The position numbers and the translations under genes are program-made. From positions 17,343 through 81,342 of IMG/VR virus record IMGVR_UViG_3300035698_012707: DNA of 64,000 nt, one strand, 5' to 3'. The notes beneath the pieces are model-generated. The model saw only the letters and a list, made by a program, of their open reading frames with translations, was not told the DNA's origin and did no database searches. Source of the DNA: a virus. Positions 1 through 3,527 of this stretch are shown here, in pieces (position 1 is the stretch's first letter; every line of letters begins with the position of its first letter).

Positions 1-253
1 TATGTCGTCAAATGAGATAAGTATTATGGTACAAAGATTCTATAAAAATAATCCAGATAAAAGATATTTACCAATAGTAGATGTTGTTTTTGACGGATGT
101 AAATAGAACAATTTAGGTATAAGTTCTTTTATTTGCAAAATAATAGAAGATTATATGAAAAATGGTGTAGAAAGTAATCGAGAGCTGGTTCTTGATTACG
201 CAACATACACCTTGTTAACAAGGTAAGACCCAAAAAACAAAAGGAGGTAGACA

Positions 254-667
254 ATGATTACAGTCAAAGTCGCTCGTTTGGGAAACACAGTGCAGGAAGT
301 TGCACTCAATGAAGGTTCATCCGTTCAGGATGCTCTAACAGCTGCTGATCTCGCAGTAGACGGTGAGGATATTCGTATCAACTCATCAAACTCTAACCTT
401 ACAGATGTAGTACGTAATGGAGACATTATTACTCTTGTACCAAAGGTAAAGGGTGGACAAAAGCTCGTTAAGGTCGCAAGACTAGGTTCAACAGTGGAAG
501 AAGTTGCTGTTCCTAACGACGCTACAATTGAGTATGCTCTTGAAGCAGCCGATGTTGTAGTAGACAACGAAGACATCCGTTTGGATGGCCGCTCTGCAAG
601 TTTATCAGATAGTATTGGCAACGCGTCAATGATCACTATCGTTCCAAAGGTAAAAGGTGGTAAGTAA
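254..667 (+). CDS. Tandem ubiquitin-like (beta-grasp, ThiS/MoaD/Ubl-type) protein; two units each ending PKVKGG, plus one terminal Lys
   Basis: Internal duplication VKVARLG...LxAAD...EDIR...ITxVPKVKGG occurs twice (~68 aa each); strong RBS AAGGAGG; followed by E2-like and JAB genes. Confidence 0.85.
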   Translation: MITVKVARLGNTVQEVALNEGSSVQDALTAADLAVDGEDIRINSSNSNLTDVVRNGDIITLVPKVKGGQKLVKVARLGSTVEEVAVPNDATIEYALEAADVVVDNEDIRLDGRSASLSDSIGNASMITIVPKVKGGK

Positions 668-690
668 TATCCCCCCACAGTAAAAAATCC

Positions 691-726
691 GAGGGCGGTA
701 TGTGCAATGCATATCGTCCTCATTTT
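691..726 (+). terminator. Stem-loop after the Ubl gene (terminator/attenuator candidate)
   Basis: GAGGGCGGTATGT pairs with GCATATCGTCCTC (some G-U), followed by ATTTT. Confidence 0.5.
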
Positions 727-793
727 AAAGGAGTGTGATGCAAACAAAAATACATGTTGTATTAATGTTTTCAATATTTTAAAAGGAGGAGTA

Positions 794-1948
794 ATGAGCG
801 AAAAGAAAAAGTATCAAATAAAATACAGTGGAGATGGTACACCGTCAACAAAGGTGAAATCATCATATGATAAGTTGTTGCAAGAGCTTGCTAATGACTT
901 TGAAATAGACATAGAAGTTGTTACATGTCATGGAAAATATGACTATATACCCGCAGAATTAGACTTTGAAAAGTTCTACATATTTGCACAGTTAGTACCA
1001 GACGTTATAGCTTATAAGGGTAAAAAGTTGTCTAAACTTATGTTGGGCGATAAGGAAGTAACTGTAACTGGTGGTCAAACAGATAGCATGAAAATAGTCG
1101 GAGCTATGCCAAAAGATGCTACAGTTATAAATGATTCAAAAGGTGAAGCCTTAGCAATTGTATACGACGCATCCTTGTACATATTAAATGATTTTATTCA
1201 TTGTCATTCAAAGGATGAATTAGACAATAGTTTAGAAATATTTAAGTATATCGTTAACGAAGCAACTAAAACACCAGAACTATTGAAAGCACTTAAGTAT
1301 GGCACGGAAGAAAAAGGACGTAAGTCTTTAGAAATAGCGTTAAAGAAACAATACAAAGAAAGACTTAAGAAAGAAAAAGTATTACTTGATAGTTCAGAGA
1401 AACTTATAGATAATTATACTCAGGAACTTACAAAAGCAAGTAGAAAAATAATATCTACACAAAATATTATTAAAGCAATTCACAGCAATCTAGAAGATAT
1501 TCCAGAATCTCTTGAAAAGAAATGGAATTCTGCAAAAAAGCTAGAGAGTACACCAATATTTGAATCTGTTAGTTTCCAGAGAAATTCTGTAAAAGCTGTT
1601 ACGACTGAAATATTTGTAACAGAAAAGAAAGTAACATATCAAATGGGAAAATTTGAGATTGTCCTAGAATTCAATGGTAATATAAGAATAATGTCAATGT
1701 GGCCACAAAGAGGACCTTCGCAACAGCATCCTCACGTAAGTGCTGAAGGTCGTCCATGCTGGGGAAACCTCAGTGGAGAGTTACCAAAAAGGATAGCAGA
1801 AAGTGAATTTGACGTTGCATTTGTAGAGATACATACATTTCTATGTCATTATTCACAAGAAGGCGGTCCATATGCTAATATTAATCACTGGCCACAAGCA
1901 ACAGCAAAACAAATAGCTATGCTTAAAGCTGACAAAGTTAGAACGTAA
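794..1948 (+). CDS. Coiled-coil protein with C-terminal prokaryotic E2 (ubiquitin-conjugating-like) domain
   Basis: C-terminal HPHVSAEGRPCWGN matches the E2 HPN/H...Cys catalytic pattern; central heptad-rich segment; RBS AGGAGG before ATG 794. Confidence 0.7.
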   Translation: MSEKKKYQIKYSGDGTPSTKVKSSYDKLLQELANDFEIDIEVVTCHGKYDYIPAELDFEKFYIFAQLVPDVIAYKGKKLSKLMLGDKEVTVTGGQTDSMKIVGAMPKDATVINDSKGEALAIVYDASLYILNDFIHCHSKDELDNSLEIFKYIVNEATKTPELLKALKYGTEEKGRKSLEIALKKQYKERLKKEKVLLDSSEKLIDNYTQELTKASRKIISTQNIIKAIHSNLEDIPESLEKKWNSAKKLESTPIFESVSFQRNSVKAVTTEIFVTEKKVTYQMGKFEIVLEFNGNIRIMSMWPQRGPSQQHPHVSAEGRPCWGNLSGELPKRIAESEFDVAFVEIHTFLCHYSQEGGPYANINHWPQATAKQIAMLKADKVRT

Positions 1949-1958
1949 GGGGGAAGTA

Positions 1959-2939
1959 ATGGGAGAAATAACTACAAAAACAAAGTTCCAAGCTCTATAT
2001 ATTGACCCAGAATGTAAGAAAAAATTACAATACTGGGCAGATGCAGCCGTTGGAGAAGTTAGTGGTCTTGGTCTTGTAGACAATGAAGACGGAAGAATGG
2101 TGGTAAGAGAGGTCTACATCTTAGAACAGGAATGTTCAGGAGCAGACACAGAGCTTGATCCAGAGGCTATATCTAAGCTTATGATGGAAATTTTGCAAGC
2201 TGATAAAGATCCAGCCAAGTTAAAGTTCTGGTGGCATAGTCATGTTAATATGGGTTGTTTTTGGAGTGGAACTGATGATGAATGTGCTGAAACGTTAAGC
2301 AAAGAATTTGCATTCAGTACCGTAGTCAACAAGAAAGGCGAATCTAAAACAAGGCTTGATTTATATGAGCCGTTTAGAATAACTGTAGACAATATTCGTC
2401 TTATCGAGATAACTGCAGAAGATGAAAATCTTAAAAAACAATGCGAACAAGACGTAAAAGAAAAAGTAAAAACAAAATCATGGACAAGAAATTATAATCA
2501 ACATAATAATGGAAAAGGATACTATGATCAGAAAAAGTGGGATAACTTTGGAAGGTGTGGAAGCCCATATGAGGATCCATATGATTATGCTGAAACATCC
2601 AAAGTAAAGTTAAAAGACGACATAGTTGAAGACATTAAACTTCTTAGTGATCTTATATTTGATAACGGATTTTCAGCCATTGCGTTGAATAGCTTTATTT
2701 ATGATATAACAAATCAGGCCATAGAGAAGATATATGGTGATAAAGCAGAATGTAAGGATGGAATAGGAACATATTCCGAAAATGAAAAACTTTGTAAAAA
2801 ATGCAAGATATCAAAACAGTGTGAATTGTTGACAGATAAACTAAAGGAGCCATTGGATGAAAATGATACTTGTAGCGAACATAATAAGGAAGACATTTCC
2901 GAAGATAGTGTTGAAGTTATCGTCGATCCTGATAATTGA
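1959..2939 (+). CDS. JAB/MPN+ (JAMM) metallo-isopeptidase
   Basis: N-terminal GEVSGLG glutamate plus WWHSHVNMGCFWSGTD (HxH-x7-S-x2-D JAMM motif); C-terminal CxxC...C. Confidence 0.85.
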   Translation: MGEITTKTKFQALYIDPECKKKLQYWADAAVGEVSGLGLVDNEDGRMVVREVYILEQECSGADTELDPEAISKLMMEILQADKDPAKLKFWWHSHVNMGCFWSGTDDECAETLSKEFAFSTVVNKKGESKTRLDLYEPFRITVDNIRLIEITAEDENLKKQCEQDVKEKVKTKSWTRNYNQHNNGKGYYDQKKWDNFGRCGSPYEDPYDYAETSKVKLKDDIVEDIKLLSDLIFDNGFSAIALNSFIYDITNQAIEKIYGDKAECKDGIGTYSENEKLCKKCKISKQCELLTDKLKEPLDENDTCSEHNKEDISEDSVEVIVDPDN

Positions 2940-3280
2940 GGGTCTTTTTTTAGCAATAGATAAATATTTATTTCAACGGTTACGTAAGGAGCCAGAAATG
3001 ACAAAGAAAACAGAAAAAAATGAAAACGTATATTGTCAAATATGTTACTTGCAAAGTGACAATAGTCCAGATGTAAAGTTTCATTTATATGAAGAGGGTA
3101 CATTTTCATATCCAACCGAAATGCATATATGTCAAAAATGCTTAGACTGGGTAAATTTTATGAGAAAAATGGCATCTGAACAAGCAAAGTTTCCAGAAAA
3201 GGATTCATTTGAGAATTCTAATTGGTGGTGGCAACCTAAAAAAGAGGGTCATTCTGCAGCCGAAATGTGTGTAAAATAGG

Positions 3281-3335: not shown

Positions 3336-3527
3336 ATGGTTAAAAGACCAAAAGAAAAGGTAGTTGGATGCGGAACATGTTTGTTTCGTGGAGGAGAACC
3401 TTATACAGATGAAACGTTAGATAAGGTTGAGAGAGTTTATTGCAAAGCTAGGAAGGTTGCAGTTGATGTCGAAATAATGAACAAGTTTTGCGACCACTTT
3501 CAGGTCAAACCGCAGGAGACGGAATGA
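3336..3527 (+). CDS. Small Cys-rich hypothetical protein
   Basis: CxxC...C...C; RBS GGAGG. Confidence 0.55.
   Translation: MVKRPKEKVVGCGTCLFRGGEPYTDETLDKVERVYCKARKVAVDVEIMNKFCDHFQVKPQETE

What the first reader, a model, noticed from the sequence alone, without database searches (positions are those of the whole stretch)
254..2939. Phage-encoded ubiquitin-like conjugation system with a polyubiquitin-style precursor
Seen in sequence: an operon of (i) two head-to-tail beta-grasp units, each ending PKVKGG with a single Lys capping the last, (ii) a coiled-coil protein with an E2-like HPH...C site and (iii) a JAMM peptidase. Established: eukaryotic polyubiquitin genes use this design (GG after every unit plus a blocking residue, matured by a DUB), and bacterial Bil/Bub-type operons use Ubl, E1, E2 and JAB for protein conjugation, Bil in anti-phage defence. 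Inference: the phage JAB cuts after each GG to release two distinct Ubls that the E2 transfers to host or phage targets, possibly countering defence or tagging proteins. A hairpin after the Ubl gene would favour Ubl excess. No ThiF-type E1 is visible in the window, so it is encoded elsewhere, borrowed from the host, or not needed.
Basis: partly seen in the sequence, partly recalled or inferred. Interest (0 to 1): 0.9.

Follow-up and report, generated by a model that had tools for sequence, protein, structure and literature searches.

The report
Phage ubiquitin-like tagging kit, double-tag precursor
An uncultured phage carries a full ubiquitin-like protein-tagging kit (activating enzyme, a new kind of E2 carrier, a trimming protease) whose tag gene encodes two tags joined head to tail, each ending in Gly-Gly as in eukaryotic polyubiquitin genes.

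Summary
Window 254-667 encodes two beta-grasp units, each ending PKVKGG, with one capping Lys. Window 794-1948 encodes a 384-aa protein whose C-terminal third has a UBC (E2) fold. Its invariant HPH...C aligns with the HPN/catalytic Cys of UBE2L3. Window 1959-2939 encodes an Rpn11-like JAMM peptidase.

Related contigs show the order UblX-E1-diUbl-E2L-JAB; here a three-ORF insertion split E1 from the di-Ubl and left an E1 3' remnant at 113-226.

The E2-like protein belongs to a large family with no Pfam model (2531 representative proteins). In 43 of 49 genome contigs and 2 of 2 other viral contigs it lies beside the same E1, JAB and/or a GG-ended Ubl.

Both GG tails are kept in 119 of 120 di-Ubl homologues. 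Cleavage at the inner GG is inferred, not shown; an uncleaved ISG15-like double tag is the main rival. Targets and biological role are unknown.

It is not Bil, Bub or CBASS by their defining features. I found no paper describing it. Unchecked notes of this scan report similar phage kits on other DNA; the double-GG precursor is this lineage's own feature.

The parts
113..226 (+). Orphan remnant of the original 3' end of the E1 gene (37 codons plus stop), left when a roughly 1.3-kb three-ORF insertion separated E1 from the di-Ubl gene
   Evidence: Translation resembles the E1 C-termini of related contigs. It ends 27 nt before the di-Ubl start, much as E1 abuts the di-Ubl gene in L002 and L003.
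254..667 (+). di-Ubl gene: 137 aa, two beta-grasp units plus a capping Lys
   Evidence: Pfam ThiS E 1.3e-4, above its cut-off. SAMP2 (5lda_B) E 0.0018. AF2 pLDDT 86.3. Foldseek to linear di-ubiquitin E 3.4e-7.
254..457 (+). Ubl unit 1 (residues 1-68), ends PKVKGG, followed by Gln69
   Evidence: The GG-Q junction is kept in 119 of 120 listed homologues.
458..664 (+). Ubl unit 2 (residues 69-136), ends PKVKGG, plus cap Lys137 (codon 662-664)
   Evidence: The cap is K in 117 of the 119 homologues that carry both motifs, E in 1 and N in 1.
691..721 (+). Conserved stem-loop (13 bp, 5-nt loop) between the Ubl and E2L genes, followed by AUUUU
   Evidence: z -3.4. An equivalent stem is present in 14 of 14 loci, with different stem sequences in different lineages.
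794..1948 (+). E2L: 384 aa. N-terminal alpha/beta domain (about 1-170), long helix (171-252), UBC-like C-terminal domain (about 236-368)
   Evidence: 27 close homologues. Alignment A1. AF2 pLDDT 84.9. VIA Z 7.8 to E2 enzymes; the N-domain matches class I glutamine-amidotransferase-like folds at Z about 6-6.5.
1499..1897 (+). UBC (E2)-like core of E2L, residues 236-368
   Evidence: The top 16 rows of the Foldseek-independent search are all E2 enzymes: Z 7.8-6.7, 114-130 residues aligned, rmsd 3.2-6.2. The family profile hits UBE2L3 at E 8.6e-4.
1727..1759 (+). Codons for H312-P313-H314...C322, the predicted E2 active site
   Evidence: Invariant in 25 of 25 aligned sequences. HPx...CxG is present in 169 of 176 family proteins, 167 of them HPH. 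It aligns to the HPN...Cys of UBE2L3.
1959..2939 (+). JAB/JAMM metallopeptidase, 326 aa: catalytic domain about 1-170 plus a conserved C-terminal region of unknown role
   Evidence: Pfam Prok-JAB is weak, E 0.009. PSMD14/Rpn11 E 1.3e-5. It lies directly after E2L in 15 of 15 related contigs with room.
2235..2276 (+). JAMM motif H93-x-H95-x7-S103-x2-D106
   Evidence: Aligned with the same motif of PSMD14.
2925..2954 (+). Terminator-like hairpin plus T-run that overlaps the JAB stop codon; likely end of the operon
   Evidence: The scan found 2 such sites in the region against 1.7 expected by chance, so this is weak on its own.

Best explanation
This is a virus-owned ubiquitin-like conjugation cascade. 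The ancestral operon is UblX-E1-diUbl-E2L-JAB.

Proposed steps:
1. The JAMM peptidase matures the 137-aa precursor. It removes Lys137 and most likely also cuts between Gly68 and Gln69, giving two different 68-residue Ubls with free Gly-Gly ends.
2. The minimal 226-aa ThiF-type E1 adenylates the terminal Gly.
3. The Ubl passes to Cys322 of E2L as a thioester.
4. E2L attaches it to lysines of still unknown phage or host proteins. No E3 is encoded in the operon. E2L's own N-terminal alpha/beta domain and long helix are the candidates for choosing targets, as is proposed for Bil E2 proteins.
5. The JAB can also reverse conjugates.
6. The conserved stem-loop after the Ubl gene would give more Ubl than enzyme transcript.

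Shown here: the gene content, the folds, the motifs and their conservation. Inferred: every chemical step, the inner cleavage, the targets and the role.
For: Folds and motifs:
- The di-Ubl model has two beta-grasp units like linear di-ubiquitin.
- E2L residues 236-368 match E2 enzymes: the top 16 rows are all E2s, Z 7.8-6.7; a second look gives Z 7.8 at rmsd 3.0-3.2 over 114-116 residues.
- A profile of 24 diverse family members hits UBE2L3 at E 8.6e-4. The nine best rows are eight UBE2L3 sequences and one chain named L3A2-1. HPH and Cys fall on HPN and the catalytic Cys.
- HPx...CxG is present in 169 of 176 family proteins; 6 of the 7 without it matched only the N-terminal half of the profile, up to about position 207.
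- The JAB aligns to Rpn11/PSMD14 with the full JAMM motif.
- The E1 is ThiF-type, with the glycine-rich loop and Cys180 invariant in 8 of 8 aligned sequences.

Gene linkage in the window's lineage:
- JAB directly after E2L in 15 of 15 contigs with room.
- di-Ubl directly before E2L in 13 of 13.
- E1 before the di-Ubl in 9 of 9.

Gene linkage elsewhere:
- 2 of 2 other viral contigs found by motif scan carry Ubl(GG)-E2L-JAB-E1.
- All 49 genome contigs found by motif scan hold an E2L. 34 have this E1, 24 this JAB and 24 a Ubl ending VPK[IV][RK]GG. The 6 with E2L alone have at most 379 nt of room downstream.

Inner cleavage:
- PKVKGG is the longest block invariant across all 20 units of 10 proteins, while the two units are only 52% identical to each other.
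- The two tails use different synonymous codons, so selection on the protein, not recent gene conversion, keeps them alike.
- 119 of 120 listed homologues keep both motifs; the exception is a truncated 109-aa record.
- Single-Ubl relatives end at the same motif, with 0-5 extra residues in most.
- Pre-processing of a capped Ubl by the operon's JAB is shown for Bil (Chambers et al. preprint, passages read).
Against: - No biochemistry, no expression data and no cultured host.
- The Z scores of 7-8 lie in the range the tool calls 'middling'. No Pfam, NCBIfam, PADLOC or PHROG model recognises E2L as an E2.
- Unlike polyubiquitin, the copy number never varies. No longer form was found (which the tool calls weak evidence), and all 119 listed homologues with both motifs have exactly two, non-identical units.
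- The residues after each GG are themselves conserved: Q in 119 of 119, K in 117 of 119. A disposable cap should vary. This could mean a P1' preference of the protease, or that these bonds are not cut.
- The E1 has no separate catalytic-Cys domain. Whether Cys180 forms a thioester is unknown.
- The hairpin lacks a strong U-tract.
Confidence: 0.55

Rival explanations
1. Same cascade, but the di-Ubl is a single tandem modifier like ISG15, FAT10 or type I BilA. Only Lys137 is trimmed, only Gly136 is activated, and the inner PKVKGG serves as a linker or a docking element.
For: There are always exactly two units, which are distinct paralogues (52% identical) kept since the base of the lineage. No 3- or 4-unit form was found. 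Foldseek matches ISG15 and FAT10 as well as linear di-ubiquitin. Type I Bil Ubls have two fused domains and one C-terminal Gly (Hor et al. preprint, passages read). Gln69 after the inner GG is invariant.
Against: A linker has no evident need to keep all six residues of the activation and recognition tail identical to the true C-terminus across 119 of 120 homologues, down to 58% overall identity, with synonymous codon differences between the two tails. The same tail is the C-terminus of the single-unit Ubls in other lineages. The model's confidence dips at the junction (residues 61-70, mean pLDDT 74), as expected of a flexible, accessible tail.
Confidence: 0.3
2. The E1, Ubl and JAB work without an E2, as in archaeal SAMP/UbaA/JAMM or Thermus TtuB/TtuC. 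E2L is a non-catalytic UBC-fold scaffold or Ubl-binding protein.
For: The Ubl's nearest solved relatives by sequence are SAMP2-type proteins. The E1 is a minimal ThiF-type enzyme like UbaA. Inactive E2-fold proteins (UEV, RWD) are common; Iyer et al. 2006 note RWD-like inactive versions in bacterial operons (passage read).
Against: The Cys at the catalytic position and the HPH triad before it are kept across the E2L family: in 25 of 25 sequences of A1 and in 167 of 176 family proteins. Inactive E2-fold proteins have typically lost the Cys (my recollection). E2L is the most constant neighbour of E1, JAB and Ubl.
Confidence: 0.07
3. The Ubl is a ThiS/MoaD-type sulfur carrier that the E1 thiocarboxylates for cofactor or tRNA thiolation. 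The genes would be an auxiliary metabolic module.
For: Pfam ThiS and NCBIfam ThiS/ThiF are the best named hits. Sources name homologues 'molybdopterin converting factor small subunit' or 'sulfur carrier protein ThiS'. Related E1 genes in deposited phages are annotated 'thiamine biosynthesis protein ThiF'.
Against: No rhodanese, MoaE or ThiG is found in the 81-kb record (the record is 58% complete). There is constant linkage to a Cys-bearing UBC-fold protein and a JAMM peptidase. A capped, two-unit precursor has no precedent that I know of among sulfur carriers. All ThiS/ThiF NCBIfam scores lie far below the curated cut-offs (for example 64.8 against 159 bits).
Confidence: 0.05

Closest known systems
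Bil (BilABCD) bacterial ISG15-like anti-phage conjugation systems
   Same: Four components: Ubl, E2, JAB/JAMM and E1, with no E3. The two distant viral contigs even share the Bil gene order Ubl-E2-DUB-E1 (Chambers preprint passage). The JAB pre-processes capped Ubls in Bil. Type I Bil Ubls have two beta-grasp domains.
   Different: The E1 here is a 226-aa single ThiF domain, not IAD-AAD-CYS. The E2 keeps a eukaryote-type HP[H/N] triad ten residues before the Cys; no His stands about 13 residues after Cys322 in the window's E2L, where the Bil Cys/His pair would put one. Both beta-grasp units end in GG, whereas Bil has one terminal Gly. It is carried by phages, in their replication-gene region, not by a bacterial defence island. 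No detectable sequence match: PADLOC gives only Rossmann-region hits for E1.
Eukaryotic polyubiquitin genes
   Same: Head-to-tail units that each end in Gly-Gly, with one extra residue after the last unit and a dedicated peptidase to release them. Foldseek's best matches are linear di-ubiquitin and a Naegleria polyubiquitin.
   Different: The units are 52% identical paralogues, not identical repeats. There are always two. The cap residue is conserved (K in 117 of 119) rather than variable. The beta-grasp is of the 68-residue ThiS/SAMP type.
Archaeal SAMP / UbaA / JAMM sampylation
   Same: Small ThiS/MoaD-like Ubl with a GG end, a minimal E1 and a JAMM peptidase. The nearest solved sequence relative of unit 1 is SAMP2 in entry 5lda.
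   Different: Sampylation has no E2. Here a Cys-bearing UBC-fold protein is the most constant partner. The SAMP description is my recollection plus the abstracts listed.
Eukaryote-like Ub/E1/E2/RING/Rpn11 operon of Caldiarchaeum subterraneum
   Same: An E2 with an HPN-type motif and an Rpn11-like JAMM. This JAB also hits the Caldiarchaeum-type 'Rpn11-like' chains 6fjv and 6fju at E 9.4e-4 and 2.9e-3.
   Different: No RING E3 was found here. The Ubl is ThiS/SAMP-like rather than ubiquitin-like in sequence. The E1 is minimal. I saw these papers (PMC5654768, PMC3082918) only as search listings and abstract openings.
Lambda/T1 tail assembly proteins TAPI (Ubl) and TAPK (JAB + NlpC/P60)
   Same: The previously described phage pairing of a Gly-ended beta-grasp domain with a JAB peptidase predicted to release it (Iyer et al. 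2006, passages read).
   Different: Those have no E1 and no E2, sit in the tail module, and are processing-only systems.

Membership tests
UBC / E2 superfamily | UBC fold: N-terminal helix, four-stranded meander, active-site loop, C-terminal helices | tested here: met
   Model residues 236-368 match E2 enzymes: top 16 rows all E2s, Z 7.8-6.7, 114-130 residues aligned; Z 7.8, rmsd 3.0-3.2. Z is in the tool's 'middling' range, but the E2 rows cover the whole domain.
UBC / E2 superfamily | HPN-type triad about 10 residues before the catalytic Cys | tested here: met
   H312-P313-H314...C322, with the same spacing as the HPN...Cys of UBE2L3 in the HMMER alignment. Invariant in A1. HPH in 167 of 176 family proteins. 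The third residue is His, not Asn.
UBC / E2 superfamily | Recognition by curated E2 models (Pfam UQ_con, Prok-E2 families) | tested here: not met
   No E2 model is listed for E2L at E <= 1. No Pfam family at E <= 0.01 for 10 of 10 other members.
UBC / E2 superfamily | Forms a Ubl~Cys thioester | not testable with these tools
   Needs biochemistry.
Bil (BilABCD) | Operon of Ubl, E2, JAB and E1 | tested here: met
   Bil gene order in L021 and L025.
Bil (BilABCD) | [quoted passage not shown] | tested here: not met
   The E1 is 226 aa with one ThiF domain at residues 18-192; its relatives are 223-237 aa.
Bil (BilABCD) | BilB-type E2 active site: Cys with a conserved His about 13 residues downstream | tested here: not met
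   In the window's E2L no His lies within 13 residues after C322. No His column is invariant or nearly invariant downstream of C322 in A1. The conserved His residues lie upstream (HPH).
Bub (6E / DUF6527) | DUF6527 serine protease; E1 and E2 without catalytic Cys; Ubl-E2 and JAB-E1 (type I) or E2-E1 (type II) fusions | tested here: not met
   No PF20137 in the 81-kb record. The E2L Cys is invariant. All four proteins are separate genes.
Type II CBASS Cap2/Cap3 | E2-E1 fusion acting on a CD-NTase | tested here: not met
   PADLOC E1-E2 models match mostly a short stretch of the E1 (about residues 12-106; one of the 25 listed rows reaches 167). E2L and JAB have no hit to these models. A true Ubl is present.
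JAMM/MPN+ metallopeptidases | E...HxHx7Sx2D zinc site | tested here: met
   E33, H93, H95, S103 and D106 align with PSMD14/Rpn11 at E 1.3e-5.
ThiS/MoaD/SAMP-type beta-grasp modifiers | Beta-grasp fold with C-terminal Gly-Gly | tested here: met
ThiS/MoaD sulfur-carrier pathways | Partner sulfur enzymes (rhodanese, MoaE, ThiG) in the genome | tested here: not met
   0 matches for PF00581, PF02391 and PF05690 in the record. The record is 58% complete and the host could supply them.
Polyubiquitin-type precursor | Head-to-tail units each ending GG, with extra residue(s) after the last | tested here: met
Polyubiquitin-type precursor | Near-identical repeats with variable copy number | tested here: not met
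   The units are 46-58% identical within a protein. There are always two. No longer form was found (weak evidence).
Polyubiquitin-type precursor | Cleaved after each GG by a dedicated peptidase | not testable with these tools
   Needs a cleavage assay.

The most novel reading that the evidence does not exclude
Phages and other mobile elements carry a third large clade of prokaryotic ubiquitin-type conjugation systems, beside Bil and Bub. It is built on a so far unnamed E2 family (HPH...C, thousands of members), a minimal E1 and an Rpn11-like JAMM. In the E2 active-site triad and in the JAMM's closest solved relatives it resembles the archaeal/eukaryotic machinery more than Bil or Bub do. In this lineage the tag gene has become a true polyubiquitin-style precursor, cut at two Gly-Gly sites into two different tags that the virus attaches to host or viral proteins during infection.
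Probability: 0.35. Interest if true: 0.85.

Novelty: new variant of a known kind. Interest (0 to 1): 0.72.

Why it matters
Ubiquitin-like conjugation in bacteria is so far known as an anti-phage weapon (Bil, CBASS Cap2; probably Bub). Here the virus owns the whole cascade, in its replication-gene region, in a lineage with at least 145 distinct di-Ubl sequences.

The E2 belongs to a family of 2531 representative proteins that no curated protein-family library names. If the cascade is active, phages would rewrite host or their own proteins by ubiquitin-type tagging. The purpose could be counter-defence, host take-over, exclusion of rival phages or virion assembly.

The double-GG precursor gives a clean, cheap test of whether polyubiquitin-style processing exists outside eukaryotes. 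The Ubl tail ends K-G-G, so trypsin should leave the same di-Gly remnant as ubiquitin. By my recollection, not by any search, standard K-epsilon-GG enrichment could then find the targets directly.

The HPN-like triad and the Rpn11-like JAMM also bear on where the eukaryotic E2 and DUB types came from.

Tried and rejected
I could not inspect the long contigs (108, 62, 175, 173 kb) that hold close homologues. I used the search for related loci on metagenome contigs instead.
- The search for related loci on viral contigs with A1 found no relative.
- tblastn of four E2L-family queries against 50,697 GenBank phage records found nothing at E <= 1e-3.
- Complex prediction on E1 + E2L + UblX (partner UblX) gave no answer, score 0.00. 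This is neither for nor against binding. UblX's role stays open. My guess, untested, is an E1- or E2-docking beta-grasp subunit that cannot be conjugated, since it lacks GG in 6 of 6 sequences.
- The look-up of sequencing runs listed no RNA holder, so the 'Ubl excess through the hairpin' idea could not be tested, and read laying was not used.
- The search for homologous proteins with 'longer' found no 3- or 4-unit or fused Ubl (the tool calls this weak evidence).
- By eye, the roughly 425-aa genes upstream of JAB-E1 in crAss-like phage cr111_1 and Flavobacterium phage FpV4 looked E2L-like, and the genes before them Ubl-like. hhalign gave probabilities of 0.3%, 0.1%, 0.13% and 0.11%, so I do not claim it.
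- The Cys-His pairs of the E2L N-domain (C45-H46, H136-C137) are not kept in the distant member P0027, nor, read by eye and without an alignment, in P0035 and the L021 E2L. I therefore dropped the idea of a second, amidotransferase-like catalytic site.
- The reading 'HNH cassette' for the insertion is not confirmed: its 53-, 155- and 117-aa ORFs hit nothing in Pfam or PHROGs.
- A link between the Ubl kit and the WDxxxN terminal tags found no support in the two distant phages.
- Literature: no paper describing a phage-encoded Ubl/E1/E2/JAB system turned up. The only mention was one passing sentence about a phage UBA5-like protein family in a 2026 virome preprint. Supplementary tables of the Bil and Bub papers, which list operons, were closed and might include phage-borne cases.

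Full report
**What is there.**
The window is the last 64 kb of an 81,342-bp IMG/VR virus record, linear, 58% complete by CheckV. PHROG hits show it is a phage: a virion structural protein, primase-helicase, NrdD, glycosyltransferases and a repair exonuclease. It also has eight tRNA genes.

On the + strand near the window's start lie three tightly spaced genes:
- 254..667, 137 aa.
- 794..1948, 384 aa counted from the ATG behind a strong AGGAGG; homologues start there too.
- 1959..2939, 326 aa.

**The tag gene.**
The 137-aa product is 68 + 68 + 1 residues. Both units end PKVKGG, the second unit starts at Gln69 and the protein ends with Lys137.
- Pfam ThiS matches unit 1 just above its cut-off, E 1.3e-4.
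- The nearest solved sequence relatives are SAMP2-type proteins, 5lda_B at E 0.0018.
- An AF2 model built on 10 sequences (pLDDT 86.3) shows two beta-grasp units joined by a less confident tail.
- Foldseek matches linear di-ubiquitin, a Naegleria polyubiquitin, FAT10 and ISG15 over both units. The best E is 3.4e-7, with 96 matches at E <= 0.001.

**The middle gene is an E2 of a new family.**
It has 27 homologues at E <= 0.001, of which 23 are near full-length and at least 50% identical. None carries a Pfam domain or a name other than 'hypothetical protein'.

The AF2 model (pLDDT 84.9) has three parts:
- an alpha/beta domain (about 1-170);
- an 80-residue helix (171-252);
- a C-terminal domain of a beta-meander, a loop bearing H312-P313-H314...C322, and helices.

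The evidence that the C-terminal domain is a UBC fold:
- A search of 48,161 PDB representatives that does not depend on Foldseek puts E2 enzymes in the top 16 rows: Z 7.8-6.7, 114-130 residues aligned over model 236-368.
- Re-alignment of Foldseek's list gives the same: Z 7.8, rmsd 3.0-3.2.
- These Z values are in the range the tool calls middling, so I looked for independent sequence evidence. A profile of 24 diverse family members finds UBE2L3 in the PDB at E 8.6e-4. The nine best rows are eight UBE2L3 sequences and one chain named L3A2-1. The alignment sets HPH on HPN and the family's Cys on the catalytic Cys.

The N-domain resembles class I glutamine-amidotransferase-like folds (also IFT52-N and ThuA) at Z 6-6.5 over about 145 residues. 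Its Cys/His pairs are not kept in more distant members, so I treat it as a non-catalytic, possibly target-binding, domain.

**The family is large and unnamed.**
- An exhaustive profile search finds 2531 representative proteins at E <= 0.001 and 726 at E <= 1e-10. Many match only the helix plus E2 domain, behind varied N-termini.
- 10 of 10 tested have no Pfam family.
- The ESM Atlas places the domain among 'hypothetical protein' clusters that are 50-82% viral.
- HPx...CxG is present in 169 of the 176 proteins I held, 167 of them HPH. Six of the seven exceptions matched only the N-terminal half of the profile.

**The peptidase.**
The third gene has E33...H93-x-H95-x7-S103-x2-D106. phmmer aligns residues 21-141 to human PSMD14 and yeast Rpn11 (E 1.3e-5 to 4.5e-4), then to archaeal Rpn11-like chains and, more weakly, to CSN5. 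The motif is in register. Pfam's Prok-JAB model is only weak, E 0.009.

**The E1 and the true operon.**
A ThiF search of the whole record finds one hit just upstream of the window.
- It is a 226-aa single-domain E1, PF00899 E 2.4e-17.
- Before it, with 1 nt between the two ORFs, lies a 122-aa ORF that I call UblX. Its first 65 or so residues are a paralogue of the Ubl units. It has no GG and ends in an acidic-aromatic stretch and a helix.
- Between E1 and the di-Ubl gene lie three ORFs of 53, 155 and 117 aa with no family hit.

Nineteen related metagenome contigs show the ancestral layout UblX-E1-diUbl-E2L-JAB:
- JAB follows E2L in 15 of 15 contigs with room.
- The di-Ubl precedes E2L in 13 of 13.
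- E1 precedes the di-Ubl in 9 of 9, within 120 nt in 8 of them.
- UblX precedes E1 in 5 of 6.

Window 113..226 is the orphaned original 3' end of E1. The insertion therefore brought a replacement end.

**Wider linkage.**
A DNA pattern for the motif DHPH[VI]xxGxPCxGN finds 2 other viral contigs and 49 genome contigs.
- Both viral contigs carry Ubl-E2L-JAB-E1. Their Ubls are single units ending ...NGG and ...EGGC.
- All 49 genome-contig hits are E2L family by HMM.
- Within the loci of at most 8 kb, 34 hold this type of E1, 24 this type of JAB and 24 a Ubl. Most Ubl tails read VPK[IV][RK]GG and end at GG or carry 1-5 extra residues; two lack the motif.
- The six loci with E2L alone have at most 379 nt of room downstream.
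- By their titles these are mostly MAG contigs. 24 name Methylomirabilota/NC10. Others name Chloroflexota, Saccharibacteria, Minisyncoccales, Bacteroidota, Nitrospinae, Rubrobacter and one Pacearchaeota.
- Some may be phage contigs binned with cells. One lies in a 4.5-Mb chromosome beside a large serine recombinase-like gene, a DNA methyltransferase-like gene and an ATPase-like gene. I named these three by eye; no family search was run on them.

**Is the inner GG a cleavage site?**
For:
- Across 10 full-length proteins, orthologous units are 70% and 69% identical, and the two units of one protein 52%. PKVKGG is nonetheless the longest block invariant in all 20 units.
- The two tails use different synonymous codons.
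- 119 of 120 listed homologues, out of 145 at E <= 0.001 and down to 58% identity, keep both motifs. The exception is a truncated record.
- The same tail is the real C-terminus of single-unit Ubls elsewhere.

Against:
- There are never more than two units.
- The units are not identical.
- The residues after each GG are themselves fixed: Q in 119, K in 117, E in 1 and N in 1, of 119.

I put cleavage at both sites at about one half, and an uncleaved ISG15-like double tag at about one third.

**The hairpin.**
A 13-bp stem at 691..721 recurs after the Ubl gene in 14 of 14 loci, with lineage-specific stem sequences. This points to a conserved RNA element. It could be an attenuator or a 3'-end stabiliser that favours the Ubl message. 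No RNA data could be found.

**Comparison with known systems.**
The kind is known: prokaryotic Ubl-E1-E2-JAB operons were predicted in 2006, and Bil was shown to conjugate. Membership fails:
- Bil E1s are IAD-AAD-CYS proteins, and Bil E2s have a Cys/downstream-His site.
- Bub uses Ser and Tyr oxyesters, gene fusions and a DUF6527 protease.
- CBASS has a Cap2 fusion and no Ubl.

The E2 triad and the JAMM's best relatives are of the archaeal/eukaryotic type.

**Novelty.**
None of nine literature searches returned a description of a phage-encoded cascade. One 2026 preprint mentions a phage UBA5-like family in passing.

Unchecked notes of this scan report similar phage Ubl-E2-JAB-E1 kits on other genomes. 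My own loci confirm that such kits recur. The double-GG precursor and UblX are particular to this lineage.

Deposited phages (Flavobacterium FpV4-like, Bacteroides crAss-like, Xanthomonas) carry a related E1, 81 records in all, annotated as ThiF. In the two records I opened, FpV4 and cr111_1, a JAB gene lies next to it. I could not show an E2L or a Ubl there.

**Limits.**
Everything chemical is inferred. The context tool and the paper supplements were closed. The one complex prediction gave no answer.

Noticed in passing
G000:C1:15260-15628 (L001 1080-1448), upstream of the window: UblX: a 122-aa ORF that ends 1 nt before the E1 start. Its N-terminal part is a paralogue of the Ubl units; there is no GG, and an acidic-aromatic tail plus a helix follow. 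It is kept in 5 of 6 related contigs with room, and absent directly upstream of E1 in L013.
   Followed up: partly
window 1-226 and L001 2199-3268: Three ORFs (53, 155 and 117 aa, the last with a signal-peptide-like start) are inserted between E1 and the di-Ubl gene. The old E1 3' end is left as a remnant at 113-226. L009 and L011 have other insertions of about 700 nt between UblX and E1, and L011 one of about 740 nt between E1 and the di-Ubl. No Pfam or PHROG hit, so the endonuclease label is unconfirmed.
   Followed up: partly
L076 (Flavobacterium phage FpV4) and L077 (crAss-like phage cr111_1): 81 deposited phage records carry a related minimal E1, annotated 'thiamine biosynthesis protein ThiF'. 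In the two records opened, a JAMM peptidase gene lies just upstream, in the replication module beside primase and UDG. The two genes further upstream look E2L-like and Ubl-like by eye, but hhalign gives 0.1-0.3% probability.
   Followed up: partly
window 2998-3279 and 3336-3527: Two small Cys-rich ORFs (93 aa with CxxC...CxxC; 63 aa) follow the JAB gene in most related contigs that reach that far (orf93 in 7 contigs, orf63 in 6). The 93-aa ORF could be a zinc-ribbon partner of the system. It lies after the terminator-like site, and its homology hits are only weak.
   Followed up: no
whole record G000; L011, L013, L019, L025, L026: Terminal WDxxxN peptides: 26 C-terminal and 6 N-terminal among 365 ORFs of at least 50 aa in the record, and a few in close relatives. 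There are none in the pieces of the two distant E2L-bearing phages (0 of 80 and 0 of 37 ORFs). No general tie to the Ubl kit.
   Followed up: partly
   Followed up: partly
L002 about 2000-2140 and L005 about 200-330: Two relatives carry an extra small Cys-rich (zinc-ribbon-like) ORF in the spacer between the di-Ubl and E2L genes, downstream of the conserved hairpin.
   Followed up: no
L052 (Gammaproteobacteria MAG contig) and L061: One locus has two E2L genes in tandem before JAB-E1. Another has two JAB HMM hits between E2L and E1.
   Followed up: no
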